From NCBI RefSeq assembly GCF_030384885.1, contig NZ_CP128616.1: a stretch of 4,445 nucleotides of DNA, one strand, 5' to 3'. Within the stretch, counting starts at the first letter, position 1; each line of letters starts with the position of its first letter. The stretch is from Escherichia coli (GTDB lineage: Bacteria > Pseudomonadota > Gammaproteobacteria > Enterobacterales > Enterobacteriaceae). The position numbers were made by a program, and so were the translations under genes. Below the pieces are notes generated by a model. The model ran no database searches. It worked only from the letters and a program-made list of their open reading frames with translations, and was not told the origin of the DNA. This document shows positions 1 through 4,445 of the stretch, piece after piece.

Positions 1-262
1 AACAGTGAGCCATGTAGATGGTTGGAATGGCCTTCCTCAATACGAAATCAGGGGAAATAAAATCTACAGGACAGTGAGCCATGTAGATGGTTGGAATGGT
101 CTTCCTCAATACGAAATCAGGGGAAATAAAATCTACAGGACAGTGAGCCATGTAGATGGTTGGAATGGTCTTCCTCAATACGAAATCAGGGGAAATAAAA
201 TCTACACAACAGTGAGTCATGTAAACGGTTGGAACGGTCTTCCGCAATATGAGATCAGATAA
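1..262 (+). CDS. 3' portion of a small tandem-repeat protein (5'-partial in window; appears to continue from 4426-4445 across a circular junction); hypothetical
   Basis: Frame is open from position 2 to TAA at 260-262. Encodes VSHVDGWNGLPQYEIRGNKIYRT three times plus a diverged shorter copy. Differences between copies are mostly synonymous (GGC/GGT, AGC/AGT, AAT/AAC, CCT/CCG, TAC/TAT, GAA/GAG, AGG/AGA) against two amino-acid changes (R to T, D to N), which argues for selection on the protein. Confidence 0.6.
   Translation, partial: TVSHVDGWNGLPQYEIRGNKIYRTVSHVDGWNGLPQYEIRGNKIYRTVSHVDGWNGLPQYEIRGNKIYTTVSHVNGWNGLPQYEIR
2..259 (+). repeat. 69-bp tandem direct repeat, about 3.7 copies (units starting at 2, 71, 140, 209); in-frame coding repeat
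   Basis: Units 1-3 are near-identical (one GGC/GGT difference); unit 4 has eight substitutions. 69 bp = 23 codons, so the repeat is in frame. Confidence 0.9.
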
Positions 263-520: not shown

Positions 521-558
521 TTCCATGCCAGAACACATCCGTCAGCAACGACATTCAA

Positions 559-780
559 CAGCCCACCATTAGCCCACACACAAAATACCGATGGGCACAC
601 CGATGTATCATAAAAATTTATCCGTTATATTTCATACAAATAAGAGGCCACCATCAGCCCACTCTATTAGCCCACAAAACGCCCACACTTTTGCTATCAC
701 TATGATTATCAATATAAAACCCACAAAAGTGGGCTGATGATGGGCTAACTGTGGGCGTAGAAGCCCATCATCAGCCCACC
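559..780. repeat. Array of GCCCAC/GTGGGC hexamer motifs (at least 9 copies) with AT-rich spacers and a perfect 17-bp inverted repeat (729-745 / 763-779)
   Basis: GCCCAC at 561, 572, 657, 670, 681, 773; GTGGGC at 729, 751; GCCCAT/ATGGGC variants at 740 and 763. Spacings of 11, 13, 11, 22, 22 bp. gtgggctgatgatgggc (729-745) is the exact reverse complement of gcccatcatcagcccac (763-779). Confidence 0.7.
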
Positions 781-1021
781 ACATCCGACAAAATAGAATT
801 TTTTGCCAGATAAACACCACTATAACGCACTGAATTTAAAGTAAAATCACGCAAAACGCAGTTTTGCGACAGGTGTGGTAAATGCAGGTCAGAGGAGAGG
901 GGAATTTCAGGCGCGGAGCCGGTCCTGGTTCGGGCTACAGGACTCTCAGAAAAAGCGAATAAATTTGCGCTGGCCGTCAGAGCATTACGCCGGGGTATCG
1001 GGGTGAAACCCTGAGCAGGAG

Positions 1022-2440: not shown

Positions 2441-2512
2441 GCAAGAGATTACGCGTACAGAGCACGGATCTCAAGAAGATCGTAAGAAGAAAGTTAACAT
2501 GAGTGTTTTTAT

Positions 2513-2558
2513 CCCTCAAAAAGAAGGCTTCTATAAATAGAAGCCTTCTTTTTGAGGG
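2513..2558. terminator. 46-bp perfect palindrome / strong hairpin; likely bidirectional terminator between the higA 3' end and the RNAII promoter
   Basis: ccctcaaaaagaaggcttcta taaa tagaagccttctttttgaggg; 21-bp arms are exact reverse complements. T-rich sequence follows on the + strand; higA stop lies 26 bp away on the - strand. Confidence 0.65.
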
Positions 2559-2583
2559 ATAACTTATATTTTTTTAAAAAAAA

Positions 2584-2940
2584 TCATGCAATAGCATGTT
2601 TCTTCTCAGAATTATCAACAATGTGTTTCCTTTCTATGATTTCATGAGCGGGAATCACTCTGTCTATTTCTTCTTGCAATCGAGGGCTACTAGTAACCTC
2701 CCATAAATCAACAGACTGCTGTATATTTAGCCAGAACTTTGCAGTGGTATTGAAGGCTTTAGCCAACCTAAAAGCCATATCGGTAGACAGCTTTCTATTA
2801 TTGTTAACTAAAGCACTGGCAGAGTTTCTATGCACATTCAACATTTCAGCCAAGTCATTGATTTTTAAACCACTTGGTTCGAGATATTCATAAAGAATAA
2901 TATCCCCTACAGTTGATGGCTTTCTAGTTGCTTGGGACAT
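2584..2940 (-). CDS. higA: HigA-family antitoxin (XRE-type helix-turn-helix), 118 aa
   Basis: Translation ...TVGDIILYEYLEPSGLKINDLAEMLNVHRNSASALVNNNRKLSTDMAFRLAKAFNTTAKFWLNIQQSVDLW... has the pattern I recall for HigA/VapI antitoxins (PG.IL.EEFLEP.GL...LA..LGV.R......NG.R.I....A.RLA..FG.....WLNLQ). AGGAG sits 6 nt upstream of the ATG. Downstream of a HigB-family gene on the same strand. Confidence 0.85.
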   Translation of the reverse strand: MSQATRKPSTVGDIILYEYLEPSGLKINDLAEMLNVHRNSASALVNNNRKLSTDMAFRLAKAFNTTAKFWLNIQQSVDLWEVTSSPRLQEEIDRVIPAHEIIERKHIVDNSEKKHAIA

Positions 2941-3142
2941 GCTTTACTCCTAAATTTTTTACTTCTCTCTGTTAGATGAGGAAGATAAGTATTTCGTCTA
3001 TTACCAGCTGTAGCGATGAGTAATTATCTTAAATATAGTCACGTCATTTAGTTTATTAATCATTATTTGTAATGACATTTTAATGTAGGTGAGGGAACGC
3101 CTCACCTACTTGTTTTATAAGATAACAGCCACGACCTGTTAT
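2941..3142 (-). promoter_or_regulatory. higB-higA intergenic spacer (200 bp) with dyad elements; candidate independent higA promoter/operator
   Basis: Palindromes TCATTAtttgTAATGA (3060-3075) and GATAACAGccacgacCTGTTATC (3121-3143); - strand candidate -10 GATAAT; strong RBS for higA. No promoter has been demonstrated. Confidence 0.4.
3085..3109. terminator. Hairpin (10-bp perfect stem, 5-nt loop) inside the higB-higA spacer; terminator-like
   Basis: gtaggtgagg gaacg cctcacctac; followed on the + strand by TTGTTTTAT and on the - strand by A/U-rich sequence. Lies 33 nt downstream of the higB stop on the - strand. Confidence 0.5.
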
Positions 3143-3460
3143 CTATCGGTAATCATGTGGATCGAGATACAAATCCTCGATTCCGTTTTCACCCCACTTA
3201 AATATTAAGCGGTACTTCTCATTCACCCGTATGGATGAATACCCTGTCAATGGAGGGTTGAGATTCTCAAATCGGTTTCCCGGGGGAGACCGCAAATCTC
3301 CAACTTTATCAGCAGCATTCAGCATATCCAGCTTGCGACCTAATGAAGCACTAATCGCAGTTGGAATCTTTCGATTGGCTTTACCATATTTGTAAAACTG
3401 GTATAGCCAATCGTCTCGAAACTGAATGCGGCAATCATCATGTTCATGATCTTGCTGCAT
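3143..3460 (-). CDS. higB: HigB-family toxin (RelE/ParE superfamily, plasmid maintenance system killer type), 105 aa
   Basis: C-terminal region ...DLRSPPGNRFENLNPPLTGYSSIRVNEKYRLIFKWGENGIEDLYLDPHDYR matches the family signature I recall (DLRSPPGNRLE.L.G.R.GQ.SIR.N..WRL.F.W.......I.DYH). GAGGT RBS 9 nt upstream of the ATG. Toxin precedes antitoxin, as in hig loci. Confidence 0.85.
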   Translation of the reverse strand: MQQDHEHDDCRIQFRDDWLYQFYKYGKANRKIPTAISASLGRKLDMLNAADKVGDLRSPPGNRFENLNPPLTGYSSIRVNEKYRLIFKWGENGIEDLYLDPHDYR

Positions 3461-3646
3461 TTTTCTTTTACCTCAATTTTTGCCGCAACTTGGCAATTTT
3501 TTAGATCACCTTCTTACCTCCGATATAGTACAGCAAACACAAGAAATGCACAACAGCACAGTGCACTTGTGCAACCAATAACCATACTGTAGAATGCACC
3601 CACACACAGTGCAGATGTGCAAAATAGAGGGTAATTTGGAGGTTAC
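3461..3646. promoter_or_regulatory. Divergent promoter/operator region between higB (-) and the 80-aa ORF (+), with repeated TGCAC/GTGCA dyads
   Basis: Perfect palindrome TGCACttGTGCA (3562-3573), near-palindrome TGCAGatGTGCA (3610-3621) and further TGCAC copies at 3547 and 3595. Two copies of a roughly 19-bp repeat cacagtgca(c/g)(t/a)tgtgcaa (3557-3574, 3605-3622). Candidate higB promoter on the - strand: -35 TTGTGC (rc of 3548-3553), 17-bp spacer, -10 TACTAT (rc of 3525-3530). Candidate + strand promoter: -35 TTGTGC (3567-3572), 17 bp, -10 TAGAAT (3590-3595). Confidence 0.55.
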
Positions 3647-3889
3647 ATGGCTCTTGTTCGTTCAGGAAACAAAAGCAAGATTTTTGAAGCAGATAAGAAG
3701 TTTAACTCGGTTTTTGACACTGAATATCAGCCGGGAGAAACATGTAAATATGAAGGGATTTATAAATGTACCGGTTGCGGTAAAGAAGTAACTATCGCAG
3801 GTGGGAAAAAAATCCCACCACAAAACCACCACCAACATACCCCCGCGCAAGGGAACATTCGTTGGCAATTGTTTGTTTATGCTCAGTGA
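3647..3889 (+). CDS. Hypothetical small protein (80 aa) with Cys-x6-Cys-x2-Cys and a His-rich C-terminal segment; possible metal-binding or zinc-ribbon-like
   Basis: GGAGG RBS 4-5 nt upstream of the ATG; ORF starts right after the palindromic operator region, divergent from higB. Sequence ...CKYEGIYKCTGCGKEVTIAGGKKIPPQNHHQH.... No family recognised from memory. Confidence 0.55.
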   Translation: MALVRSGNKSKIFEADKKFNSVFDTEYQPGETCKYEGIYKCTGCGKEVTIAGGKKIPPQNHHQHTPAQGNIRWQLFVYAQ

Positions 3890-4064: not shown

Positions 4065-4083
4065 ATATCTACAGCTGACACTG

Positions 4084-4099
4084 ATTTACCATAGCATCC
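4084..4099 (+). repeat. Copy 1 of a 16-bp motif ATTTACCATA(G/A)CATC(C/T) (XerD-arm-like)
   Basis: atttaccatagcatcc; 15/16 identical to 4365-4380 and 14/16 to 295-310 (the XerD arm plus adjacent central bases of the cer-like site). Lies 33 nt upstream of the 4132 start codon. Confidence 0.7.
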
Positions 4100-4335: not shown

Positions 4336-4364
4336 AACCATAAGGCAGCATCAAAACGGCATTC

Positions 4365-4380
4365 ATTTACCATAACATCC
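4365..4380 (+). repeat. Copy 2 of the 16-bp motif ATTTACCATAACATCC (exact XerD-arm match, no convincing XerC arm)
   Basis: Reverse complement reads ...ggatg TTATGGTAAAT. The 11-bp arm is identical to the cer XerD arm; the flanking candidate XerC arm matches cer at only about 5 of 11 positions. Lies 46 nt upstream of the ATG at 4426. Confidence 0.7.
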
Positions 4381-4425
4381 GTTAACTGCGGCCTTGTCAT
4401 AAAAGAAATGGATATTGGAGACAAT

Positions 4426-4445
4426 ATGAGCAATAAGATCTATAG
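4426..4445 (+). CDS. 5' end of the tandem-repeat protein gene (3'-partial in window; continues in frame at position 1 if the molecule is circular)
   Basis: ATG at 4426 with GGAG 6 nt upstream; encodes MSNKIY then R from the junction codon (4444-4445 plus position 1), followed by TVSHVDGW... at 2 onward. The repeat unit sequence itself continues across the junction (aataagatctatag|a versus aataaaatctacagga). Confidence 0.6.

What the first reader, a model, noticed from the sequence alone, without database searches (positions are those of the whole stretch)
2584..3460. higB and higA are separated by a 200-bp spacer with a hairpin and palindromes (non-canonical architecture)
In canonical hig loci, as I recall, the toxin and antitoxin genes are closely linked and co-transcribed. 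Here a terminator-like hairpin (3085-3109), two dyads and a strong independent RBS lie between them, suggesting higA can be transcribed separately or that the pair was assembled or interrupted. HigB also carries an unusual acidic, His-rich N-terminal extension (MQQDHEHDDCR) and HigA a roughly 30-aa C-terminal extension.
Basis: partly seen in the sequence, partly recalled or inferred. Interest (0 to 1): 0.55.

Follow-up and report, generated by a model that had tools for sequence, protein, structure and literature searches.

The report
Structured spacer splitting a plasmid higBA module
A toxin–antitoxin pair on a small ColE1-type plasmid is split by a conserved 202-bp non-coding spacer. Its two RNA hairpins start at the toxin's stop codon and have kept their pairing through compensatory mutations, so the spacer most likely uncouples toxin from antitoxin expression.

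Summary
higB (3143-3460, minus strand; Pfam PF05015) and higA (2584-2940, minus strand; TIGR02607, a YbaQ homologue) are separated by 202 bp containing hairpins, dyads and a strong higA ribosome-binding site.

The gap is 193-225 bp in every member of this small-plasmid clade. In about 40 other homologous loci it is 91 bp or less.

"Assembled or interrupted" is not supported:
- Both genes are under strong purifying selection (dN/dS 0.04-0.20).
- The spacer occurs nowhere else.
- The spacer evolves more slowly than synonymous sites.

The new result concerns two stem-loops, 3120-3144 (which includes the A and G of the TAG stop) and 3085-3109. They are kept across nine lineages, with compensatory changes and freely varying loops. 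G·U pairs appear nine times on the sense strand and once on the antisense strand, so the structure is selected in the higB transcript. No U-tract follows on that strand, so it is not a canonical terminator.

Best reading: an internal attenuator or 3' stabiliser that yields a higB-only mRNA, plus a likely separate higA promoter (3059-3032). The closest precedents are the weak second promoter PhigA of plasmid Rts1 and the HicA(T)B internal terminator. The mechanism is inferred, not shown. I rate this a new variant of a known kind, of moderate interest.

The parts
3143..3460 (-). higB toxin gene (105 aa, GraT/HigB-like), with a clade-specific acidic N-terminus MQQDHEHDDCR
   Evidence: PF05015 positions 2-91 of 91, E 9e-34. 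Nearest solved structure is GraT 6F8S_B, E 4e-13. dN/dS is 0.08-0.20 against clade members. The N-terminus is conserved with in-frame indels.
2584..2940 (-). higA antitoxin gene (118 aa, YbaQ-type HTH)
   Evidence: TIGR02607, 93 bits against a cut-off of 47.7. E. coli YbaQ 2EBY, E 5.5e-43 over residues 1-105. dN/dS is 0.04-0.13.
2941..3142 (-). 202-bp non-coding spacer between higB and higA
   Evidence: It occurs only in this locus. Spacer lengths of 193, 200, 202, 203, 204, 216 and 225 bp across lineages do not differ by multiples of 3. No Rfam match.
3120..3144 (-). Stem-loop 1: AGAUAACAG-N7-CUGUUAUCU. Its 5' arm includes the A and G of the higB TAG stop codon (3145-3143).
   Evidence: I15. 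It is kept in 9 lineages. The loop-closing pair is G-C, A-U or U-A, three pairs show G·U, and the loop varies freely.
3085..3109 (-). Stem-loop 2: GUAGGUGAGG-N5-CCUCACCUAC, GC-rich. No U-tract follows on the sense strand. A T-run follows on the + strand only.
   Evidence: I14. Compensatory changes include GAGG/CCUC to GGGG/CCCC, GUAGG/CCUAC to GUAAG/CUUAC, and changed outer pairs.
3110..3119 (-). A-rich linker between the two stem-loops. On the + strand it reads as the T-run.
   Evidence: It stays A-rich but varies in sequence across the six close lineages, and is not kept in L051.
3032..3059 (-). Promoter-like element TTAATA-16 nt-TATATT, a candidate higA-specific promoter. The invariant block ACTATATTTAA lies at 3039-3029.
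   Evidence: The hexamers are kept in window, L101, L002 and L104 (TTAACA there), while the inter-hexamer bases change and the spacing is 16 or 17 nt. It is not recognisable in L081, L006, L047, L051 or L052.
2982..3030 (-). Imperfect inverted repeat AAGATAATTA-N29-TACTTATCTT in the distal spacer. The invariant block AAATACTTA lies at 2994-2986.
   Evidence: I17. The arms are invariant in the six close lineages. Function unknown.
2947..2951 (-). higA Shine-Dalgarno sequence AGGAG, 6 nt before the ATG
   Evidence: Read directly from the sequence. [TC]AGGAGT is invariant in all nine lineages.
3545..3622 (.). Two 30-nt palindromic repeats (TGCAC..GTGCA type) upstream of higB, which are candidate HigA/YbaQ operators
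   Evidence: D1, I3, I6. A similar GCAC..GTGC motif overlaps the -10 region upstream of higB in L003 and L004. A YbaQ motif in the higB-1 promoter is reported in bioRxiv 10.1101/2020.05.25.114553.
2509..2562 (.). Perfect 26-bp inverted repeat flanked by A/T runs, which is the terminator at the end of higA and insulates the replication origin
   Evidence: I1. Flanking T/A runs are visible. RNAI lies at 2333-2433.

Best explanation
This is a working type II HigB/HigA (GraT/YbaQ-type) addiction module of a small ColE1-type plasmid. Its two cistrons are deliberately uncoupled by a conserved regulatory spacer.

In the higB transcript, two stem-loops form directly at the stop codon. Stem-loop 1 pairs with the A and G of the UAG, and stem-loop 2 lies 11 nt further on. 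Together they act as a non-canonical internal attenuator, a barrier to 3' exonucleases, or both. The result would be a discrete, relatively abundant higB-only mRNA and limited read-through into higA.

higA is then supplied largely from its own promoter in the AT-rich distal spacer (candidate at 3059-3032) and from an optimal Shine-Dalgarno sequence. Toxin and antitoxin levels would therefore be set independently. HigA presumably represses the higB promoter through the TGCAC..GTGCA palindromes at 3545-3622.

**Shown here**
- Gene identities and purifying selection on both genes.
- The long spacer is a trait of this clade.
- Both helices covary, with a bias toward the sense strand.
- There is no U-tract on the sense strand.
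- The distal spacer is under constraint.

**Inferred**
- Termination or stabilisation by the stem-loops.
- Activity of the higA promoter.
- Operator binding by HigA.
For: **Gene identity and selection:**

**Long spacer is a clade trait:** the gap is 193-225 bp in window, L002, L006, L047, L051, L052, L053, L081, L101 and L104, against 91 bp or less in about 40 other homologous loci.

**Helices are selected**
- 96.5% of cells pair, rising to 98.8% (169/171) with L104 in its correct register.
- 0 of 500 shuffles reach the observed pairing, and slid controls give 37-60%.
- 3 pairs change on both sides, and the loops vary freely.
- Neighbouring synonymous sites are near saturation (pS 0.64-0.83) against L047, L051 and L052, yet the stems persist.

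**Sense-strand bias**
- There are 9 G·U cells on the sense strand and 1 on the antisense strand.
- Summed fold energy is -265.9 kcal/mol for the sense strand and -231.0 for the antisense strand.

**Distal spacer is constrained:** it diverges by 0.05-0.28 where pS is 0.17-0.71. ACTATATTTAA and the Shine-Dalgarno sequence are invariant in the six close lineages.

**Relatives show a similar feature:** those with 58-91-bp gaps mostly carry a GC hairpin 0-16 nt after the higB stop, and several of these hairpins are followed by a short U stretch.

**Precedents**
- A GC hairpin with only UUU between hicA and hicB gives about 10-fold more toxin mRNA and drives plasmid competition (PMC11878559).
- Rts1 hig has a second weak promoter, PhigA (bioRxiv 10.1101/2021.03.04.434028).
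- ybaQ is essential where higB-1 is present (bioRxiv 10.1101/2020.05.25.114553).
Against: - No transcript data were available. Termination, processing and the internal promoter are all untested.
- After stem-loop 2 the sense strand has at most two U residues (AUUAAAAU), fewer than even the HicA(T)B terminator.
- The promoter-like element scores only 9 of 12, sits in 28%-GC DNA where such matches arise by chance (4 found against 4.3 expected over the scanned region), and is not recognisable in L081, L006, L047, L051 or L052.
- The predicted internal higA promoter of A. baumannii higBA2 had no activity when tested (PMC5906591).
- The G·U strand bias rests on about 7-8 independent events (roughly p = 0.035), and G·T is also tolerated in single-stranded DNA.
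Confidence: 0.5

Rival explanations
1. There is one bicistronic higBA transcript with no internal promoter. The hairpins act only after transcription. They could stall or slow the ribosome terminating at the sequestered UAG and so lower HigB yield, as described for REP elements lying within about 15 nt of a stop codon. Alternatively they could direct processing and differential decay of the two halves of the transcript.
For: The stop codon lies inside stem-loop 1 in all nine variants, and TAG is invariant. There is no U-tract on the sense strand. The promoter is not conserved beyond the close subclade. The effect of REP elements on translation is from my memory (Liang, Rudd and Deutscher 2015); the paper was not retrievable here. 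Selective RNA processing and stabilisation by 3' stem-loops is established (PMC4423207, PMC8219983).
Against: An untranslated gap of about 140 nt that is conserved beyond the hairpins, with an invariant -10-like block, is hard to explain without a second function. A toxin-first operon with no extra source of antitoxin would need very strong translational bias toward HigA.
Confidence: 0.22
2. The hairpin at 3085-3109 is an intrinsic terminator for + strand transcription, antisense to higBA. It would end an antisense RNA that starts in or beyond higA and regulates the module.
For: On the + strand the stem is followed by TTGTTTTATA. An A-rich tract, which reads as the T-run on the + strand, is kept in composition in the six close lineages. 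There is a weak + strand promoter-like site at 2612-2640.
Against: One-sided substitutions give G·U on the sense strand in 9 cells and on the antisense strand in 1, and the antisense folds carry internal mismatches. The T-run is absent in L051 and weak in L047 and L052. No + strand promoter scoring 9 of 12 or better lies in the spacer of any variant. Stem-loop 1 has no + strand T-run.
Confidence: 0.1
3. The palindromes work at the DNA level. They could be binding sites for HigA or another dimeric protein, or a single-strand initiation or primosome assembly site on the lagging-strand template of the ColE1-type replicon.
For: Both elements are perfect dyads, and AGATAA/TTATCT recurs in stem-loop 1 and in the 2982-3030 repeat. 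The sense strand is the lagging-strand template, given RNAI on the + strand at 2333-2433 (inference). G·T is tolerated in single-stranded DNA hairpins.
Against: The arms change by compensatory substitution rather than staying fixed, and the loops vary in sequence and in length (3-9 nt). Neither fits a protein-recognition site. The dyads do not resemble the TGCAC..GTGCA operators. Their position is locked to the higB stop codon in every lineage, and unrelated hairpins occupy the same position in non-ColE1 relatives.
Confidence: 0.06
4. The spacer is non-functional leftover DNA from an old insertion or a recombination joint between two unrelated genes.
For: The distal part has only 28% GC, and its length varies between lineages (193-225 bp).
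Against: There is no match anywhere outside the locus, and no terminal repeats or target duplications. The helices covary. Distal spacer divergence is below the synonymous rate. HigB and HigA co-diverge.
Confidence: 0.03

Closest known systems
HicA(T)B of IncI2 mcr-1 plasmids: an internal non-canonical terminator between toxin and antitoxin (Lin et al., NAR 2025, PMC11878559)
   Same: Both are toxin-first type II modules on plasmids. Both have a GC-rich hairpin in the toxin-antitoxin intergenic region without a proper U-tract. In both, a subfamily with the hairpin contrasts with relatives whose genes are tightly linked or overlapping. In HicA(T)B the hairpin raises toxin mRNA about 10-fold and drives plasmid competition.
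   Different: The protein families are unrelated (HicA/HicB against HigB/HigA). There the spacer is 24 bp with one hairpin plus UUU. Here it is 202 bp with two tandem hairpins, the first including the stop codon, at most UU after the second, and about 140 bp of extra conserved AT-rich sequence. Nothing has been measured for this locus.
hig locus of plasmid Rts1 (Proteus vulgaris HigB/HigA): promoters Phig and PhigA
   Same: Toxin-first order, an HTH-type HigA that represses the main promoter through palindromic operators, and a second weak promoter giving independent higA expression (bioRxiv 10.1101/2021.03.04.434028).
   Different: From memory (Tian et al. 1996), PhigA lies within higB and the two genes are essentially contiguous. 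There is no long structured spacer. HigA similarity is only distant (4MCX, E 6e-4), and Rts1 HigB did not appear among the solved-structure matches for this toxin.
E. coli higB-1/ybaQ and related YbaQ-type pairs (L003-L044)
   Same: The HigA is 64-69% identical (2EBY, E 5e-43) and the HigB 53-65% identical. A similar GCAC..GTGC palindrome lies upstream of higB. Many carry a GC hairpin just after the higB stop. ybaQ is essential when higB-1 is present (bioRxiv 10.1101/2020.05.25.114553).
   Different: Their gaps are 13-91 bp, with single hairpins unrelated in sequence. Model R1 finds none of them. Their HigB N-terminus is basic (MTKKINIK) rather than acidic.
GraT/GraA of Pseudomonas putida (6F8S)
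   Same: It is the closest toxin with a solved structure (E 4e-13). GraT's first 22 residues are disordered, are needed for mRNase activity and hinder operator binding (PMC6393540). That is the region where this HigB carries its variable acidic run.
   Different: The core similarity is only moderate, and the N-terminus differs in composition. No structured spacer has been reported for graTA.
Stem-loops that give selective RNA processing and stabilisation, and REP elements inside operons
   Same: In both cases intercistronic stem-loops set the stoichiometry of operon products through the stability of the upstream mRNA (PMC4423207, PMC8219983).
   Different: REP elements are dispersed repeats, whereas this element is unique to the locus. 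No processing sites have been mapped here.

Membership tests
Type II HigB/HigA toxin-antitoxin module | Toxin with a RelE-fold HigB-like domain | tested here: met
   PF05015 positions 2-91 of 91, E 9.1e-34. GraT 6F8S_B, E 4e-13. The C-terminal DPH.Y motif is invariant. No NCBIfam model matched.
Type II HigB/HigA toxin-antitoxin module | Antitoxin of the HigA HTH (Xre) family | tested here: met
   TIGR02607 equivalog, 93 bits against a cut-off of 47.7. YbaQ 2EBY, E 5.5e-43.
Type II HigB/HigA toxin-antitoxin module | Reverse order: toxin gene upstream of antitoxin gene on the same strand | tested here: met
   higB is 3460-3143 and higA is 2940-2584, both on the minus strand. The order is the same in all 50 or so homologous loci.
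Type II HigB/HigA toxin-antitoxin module | Tight linkage: overlap or a short gap that allows co-transcription or coupling | tested here: not met
   The gap is 202 bp, against -29 to 91 bp in relatives outside the clade. Co-transcription itself cannot be tested with these tools.
Type II HigB/HigA toxin-antitoxin module | Palindromic operator at the higB promoter for autorepression by HigA | tested here: inconclusive
   Two 30-nt palindromes lie at 3545-3574 and 3593-3622. A related motif lies upstream of higB in L003 and L004. Binding was not tested.
Type II HigB/HigA toxin-antitoxin module | Toxicity of HigB and its neutralisation by HigA | not testable with these tools
   The evidence is indirect: dN/dS is 0.08-0.20 for higB and 0.04-0.13 for higA, and the homologous higB-1/ybaQ pair behaves as a toxin-antitoxin system (bioRxiv 10.1101/2020.05.25.114553).
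Canonical intrinsic (Rho-independent) terminator of the higB transcript | GC-rich stem-loop followed directly by a U-tract of about 7-8 nt on the transcribed strand | tested here: not met
   The stem is present. The sense-strand tail is AUUAAAAU in the window, and no variant has a U-tract. The scan scores the site on the + strand only.
HicA(T)B-type internal toxin-specific terminator | GC-rich hairpin in the toxin-antitoxin intergenic region of a toxin-first operon | tested here: met
   Stem-loops at 3120-3144 and 3085-3109, conserved and covarying.
HicA(T)B-type internal toxin-specific terminator | Short U tract (UUU) after the hairpin, and excess toxin mRNA | tested here: inconclusive
   Only UU follows stem-loop 2 (a single U in L104), and UAU follows stem-loop 1. 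mRNA ratios cannot be tested here.
REP/MITE-like dispersed palindromic element | Many copies dispersed in the genome or across replicons | tested here: not met
   The spacer matches only this locus in 72,556 plasmids. In 5,426 E. coli genomes it gives 14 places, all on plasmids and none on chromosomes. Model R1 hits only this clade's loci.
Any described RNA family (Rfam 15) | Match to a covariance model | tested here: not met
   No match at E of 1 or below within 2941-3142. The only genuine hit in the window is RNAI at 2333-2433.

The most novel reading that the evidence does not exclude
The two covarying stem-loops that sequester the higB stop codon are an undescribed cis-acting RNA element. 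On this reading they give the toxin message a protected 3' end, so that higB mRNA outlives the separately made higA mRNA. After plasmid loss, or displacement by a competitor, toxin would keep being synthesised while antitoxin synthesis stops. That is an RNA-level post-segregational logic like hok/sok, embedded in a protein-protein (type II) module, and it would explain why a high-copy ColE1-type plasmid keeps an addiction module at all. The unrelated hairpins at the same position in many YbaQ-type relatives would make this a general design principle of that clade.
Probability: 0.2. Interest if true: 0.65.

Novelty: new variant of a known kind. Interest (0 to 1): 0.45.

Why it matters
**Open question.** How toxin-first type II modules keep antitoxin in excess, or deliberately do not, is still unsettled (PMC5906591, PMC5535158).

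**Only tested precedent.** An internal hairpin changed the toxin:antitoxin ratio and plasmid competitiveness in HicA(T)B (PMC11878559).

**What this locus adds.** It offers a second, independent and evolutionarily validated case, with three differences from that precedent:
- It lies in a different toxin family.
- It sits on very common small ColE1-type plasmids of Enterobacter, Klebsiella, E. coli, Citrobacter and Salmonella: 76 PLSDB records.
- Its architecture is more elaborate, with two helices, stop-codon sequestration and a long conserved distal region.

**Why it is testable.** The nine natural variants already supply compensatory mutants, so the structure-function hypothesis can be tested directly.

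**Limits.** It is not a new kind of system, and routine annotation already calls both genes correctly.

Tried and rejected
1. **A third small gene in the spacer.** The only minus-strand ORF (3001-3105, 34 aa, GTG start inside the hairpin) is broken by 1-nt indels in L002 and other variants. Spacer lengths do not differ by multiples of 3. Rejected.
2. **Stop-codon read-through of TAG.** The frame stays open for 20 codons in the window and L002. It is shifted in L006, and L047 has two TAG codons in tandem. Rejected.
3. **Mobile element or MITE.** There are no copies elsewhere. Rejected.
4. **Known RNA family.** Rfam gives no match in the spacer. The miRNA-type hits at 2496-2570 merely reflect the 26-bp perfect palindrome.
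5. **A third hairpin at 3062-3081 (TCATTA/TAATGA).** It is not maintained in L002 or L006. Dropped.
6. **A conserved 5'-UTR helix, CUUCCUC/GAGAGAAG.** It is not consistently maintained. Left open.
7. **Using E. coli K-12 ybaQ, which lacks higB-1, to locate a spacer promoter.** The L019-type sequence matched only plasmids of about 75-216 kb (mostly about 90 kb) and no chromosome, so the comparison could not be made.
8. **Retrieving the paper on REP elements near stop codons.** It is not in the library, so that mechanism is cited from memory only.
9. **The metagenome pattern scan.** It returned 70 loci, of which 8 were true relatives and the rest chance matches.
10. **Alignment A6 from the model search.** It mixes strands, so I did not use it for pair counts.
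Full report
**1. What the window is.**
- The 4445-bp window is a small ColE1-type plasmid. It carries RNAI at 2333-2433 (Rfam, 91 bits) and a Rop-like ORF at 1412-1615 (assigned by reading its sequence).
- It is 99.8% identical over the higBA region to E. coli plasmid NZ_CP075744.
- The same higBA region is present in 76 PLSDB plasmids of Enterobacter, Klebsiella, Escherichia, Citrobacter, Raoultella, Leclercia, Salmonella and Serratia.

**2. Checking the observation.**
- higB is 3143-3460 on the minus strand (105 aa) and matches PF05015 end to end, E 9e-34.
- higA is 2584-2940 on the minus strand (118 aa). It passes the TIGR02607 equivalog cut-off (93 bits against 47.7) and is a close homologue of E. 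coli YbaQ (2EBY, E 5.5e-43).
- The gap between the genes is exactly 202 bp (2941-3142). It contains:
  - a perfect 10-bp/5-nt hairpin at 3085-3109;
  - a perfect 9-bp/7-nt hairpin at 3120-3144;
  - an imperfect repeat at 2982-2991/3021-3030;
  - AGGAG 6 nt before the higA ATG.
- The sense strand of the spacer folds better than all 200 shuffles, z = -3.75.
The T-run that makes 3085-3109 look like a terminator lies on the + strand, opposite to higBA.

**3. Is the architecture unusual?**
- I measured the distance from the higB stop to the higA ATG in 41 homologous loci from one-genome-per-species contigs, plus plasmid hits.
- Distant relatives have overlaps or gaps of 7-22 bp. Enterobacterales YbaQ-type relatives have 13-91 bp.
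- One locus at 122 bp (L045) has a frameshifted higB.
- Only the window's own lineage exceeds this range.
- Intermediate relatives came from the protein database and a metagenome scan (HigB 73-95% identical; L047, L051, L052, L053, L081, L101, L104). Their gaps are 225, 193, 216, 202, 200, 204 and 202 bp, and where context is visible they sit on small Rop/ColE1-type contigs.
- The long spacer is therefore a stable trait of one plasmid-borne clade, not an accident of this plasmid.

**4. Not an insertion, not coding, not a pseudo-toxin.**
- The spacer matches nothing but this locus in 72,556 plasmids. In 5,426 E. coli genomes it gives 14 places, all on plasmids.
- Spacer lengths across lineages do not differ by multiples of three, and the only ORF in the spacer is broken by indels.
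- No Rfam family matches it.
- HigB and HigA diverge in parallel, with dN/dS of 0.08-0.20 and 0.04-0.13 respectively.
It reads MQQ, then an acidic/His/Asn run of variable length, then DDCRIQF. All indels are in frame and an upstream GAGG/AAGG is conserved.
- That N-terminus adds only about 4-5 residues over relatives and about 3 over GraT. In GraT the N-terminal 22 residues are disordered, are needed for mRNase activity and impair operator binding (PMC6393540), so this variation could matter, but it is not an anomaly.
- The HigA C-terminal tail is shared with YbaQ and all relatives.

**5. The main new result: two covarying stem-loops at the higB stop codon.**
- I aligned nine distinct lineages (A5). 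Both helices are maintained while the loops change freely in sequence and length.
- In stem-loop 1 the loop-closing pair is G-C in most lineages, A-U in L051 and U-A in L052. Three other pairs alternate between A-U and G·U.
- In stem-loop 2:
  - GAGG/CCUC becomes GGGG/CCCC in L047 and L104;
  - GUAGG/CCUAC becomes GUAAG/CUUAC in L104;
  - the outer pairs change to U-A (L047) and C-G (L052), with the helix extended further out.
- Counted on the alignment, 96.5% of cells pair. None of 500 shuffles reaches that, and slid controls give 37-60%. Three pairs change on both sides.
- With L104 placed in its correct register, 169 of 171 cells pair.
- This persists although synonymous sites of the flanking genes are close to saturation against L047, L051 and L052 (pS 0.64-0.83).

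**6. Which strand?**
- One-sided substitutions produce G·U on the sense (higBA) strand in 9 cells and on the antisense strand in 1. That corresponds to roughly 7 independent events against 1.
- The summed fold energy of the nine variants is -265.9 kcal/mol for the sense strand and -231.0 for the antisense strand. The antisense versions of stem-loop 1 carry internal mismatches.
- The structure is therefore selected in the higB transcript, not as a + strand terminator or a symmetric DNA site.
- In all variants the stop codon is TAG, and at least its A and G are paired in stem-loop 1. In L047, L051 and L052 the whole UAG is paired.
- No variant has a U-tract after either helix on the sense strand, so this is not a canonical intrinsic terminator.

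**7. The distal spacer.**
- The 138-164 nt between stem-loop 2 and higA are 25-34% GC. Within the close subclade they diverge less than synonymous sites (0.05-0.28 against pS 0.17-0.71).
- The invariant blocks are ACTATATTTAA (3039-3029), AAATACTTA (2994-2986) and the Shine-Dalgarno sequence.
- The first block contains the -10 of a promoter-like TTAATA-16-TATATT (3059-3032).
- In L101, L002 and L104 both hexamers persist (TTAACA in L104), while the intervening bases change and the spacing becomes 17 nt. That is the pattern expected of a real promoter.
- The element is not recognisable in L081, L006, L047, L051 or L052, and matches at 9 of 12 are common in AT-rich DNA. I rate a higA-specific promoter as likely but unproven.

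**8. Relatives and precedents.**
- Among 17 distinct 58-122-bp spacers, most carry a GC-rich hairpin starting 0-16 nt after the higB stop. Several of these are followed by short U stretches. Seven have z below -2.
- Those hairpins are unrelated in sequence to the window's, and model R1 finds none of them. A toxin-proximal hairpin therefore looks like a recurrent design in this clade.
- The closest experimentally characterised analogue is HicA(T)B of IncI2 plasmids. There, a GC hairpin with only UUU between toxin and antitoxin gives about 10-fold more toxin mRNA and is required for plasmid-plasmid competition (PMC11878559).
- Independent antitoxin promoters are known in the archetypal Rts1 hig locus (PhigA; bioRxiv 10.1101/2021.03.04.434028). 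A predicted one in A. baumannii higBA2 was inactive (PMC5906591).
- The chromosomal higB-1/ybaQ pair behaves as a real toxin-antitoxin system with a YbaQ motif in the higB-1 promoter (bioRxiv 10.1101/2020.05.25.114553). This fits the TGCAC..GTGCA palindromes at 3545-3622 here and the related motifs in L003 and L004.

**9. Most likely mechanism.**
- The two sense-strand stem-loops mark or protect the 3' end of a higB-only mRNA, acting as a non-canonical attenuator, an exonuclease barrier, or both.
- higA is additionally transcribed from the distal spacer and translated from an optimal Shine-Dalgarno sequence. higB has a weaker GAGG with 10-nt spacing.
- HigA represses the higB promoter.
- Shown here: the selected RNA structure and the clade-wide architecture. 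Inferred: what the structure does. My confidence in the mechanism is 0.5.
- Rivals:

| Rival explanation | Confidence |
|---|---|
| Purely post-transcriptional element on a single bicistronic mRNA, including stop-codon-proximal ribosome stalling | 0.22 |
| Antisense-strand terminator | 0.10 |
| DNA-level site | 0.06 |
| Non-functional leftover DNA | 0.03 |

**10. Verdict.**
- This is a real, conserved and previously undescribed regulatory spacer inside an otherwise ordinary and correctly annotated HigBA module.
- It is a new variant of a known kind: toxin-first toxin-antitoxin modules with uncoupled cistrons.
- It is moderately interesting because it generalises the 2025 HicA(T)B finding to another family and comes with natural compensatory mutants.

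Noticed in passing
window 4426-4445 joined to 1-262 (+): The window appears to be a complete circular plasmid cut inside a gene. An ORF starting at ATG 4426 continues at position 1. It encodes about 4.5 tandem copies of the 20-aa unit NKIYRTVSHVDGWNGLPQYEIRG, from 60-nt DNA repeats. It has no significant Pfam or NCBIfam match.
   Followed up: partly
window 3647-3889 (+): An 80-aa ORF (motif CKYEGIYKCTGCGK, zinc-ribbon-like; annotated 'protein L' on K. pneumoniae plasmids) is transcribed divergently from higB. It is conserved next to higB in all close lineages and in L051 (74% identity). It has no significant family match. It shares the palindrome-bearing intergenic region with higB, so it may be co-regulated by HigA.
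   Followed up: partly
window 3545-3574 and 3593-3622: Two 30-nt, internally palindromic direct repeats (AATGCACAACAGCACAGTGCACTTGTGCAA, 77% alike, 48 nt apart) lie between higB and the 80-aa ORF. A related GCAC..GTGC motif overlaps the -10 region upstream of higB in L003 and L004. They are likely HigA/YbaQ operators.
   Followed up: partly
window 2509-2562: A perfect 26-bp inverted repeat with a 2-nt loop, flanked by A and T runs, lies between the replication origin and the end of higA. It is probably a bidirectional terminator. It produces spurious miRNA-family hits in Rfam.
   Followed up: no
window ~296-325, 4076-4095, 4364-4385: There is a cer-like XerC/XerD core (ATTTACCATAA-N8-TTGTACGCACC) at about 296-325, and two further ATTTACCATA[AG]CATC half-site-like copies. 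This was read from the sequence only.
   Followed up: no
window 540-800: The region is dense with CAGCCCAC/GCCCACA motifs in both orientations, including a long imperfect palindrome around 724-787. This was read from the sequence, with weak chance-level Rfam hits there. It could be iteron-like or a protein-binding array.
   Followed up: no
L009 2289-2326 and L014 2292-2362 (Pectobacterium, Brenneria): In these relatives the higB-higA spacer consists of tandem copies of the octamer CCCGTAGA (about 3 and 7-8 copies) instead of a hairpin.
   Followed up: no
L003, L005, L007, L008, L010, L012, L018, L019, L025, L029, L033 (spacers after higB): Most 58-91-bp spacers of YbaQ-type higBA relatives carry a GC-rich hairpin starting 0-16 nt after the higB stop. 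The hairpins are unrelated to each other in sequence. Several are followed by short U stretches, for example L012 GGTTAGGGCTTCGGCCCTAATCTTTCT.
   Followed up: partly
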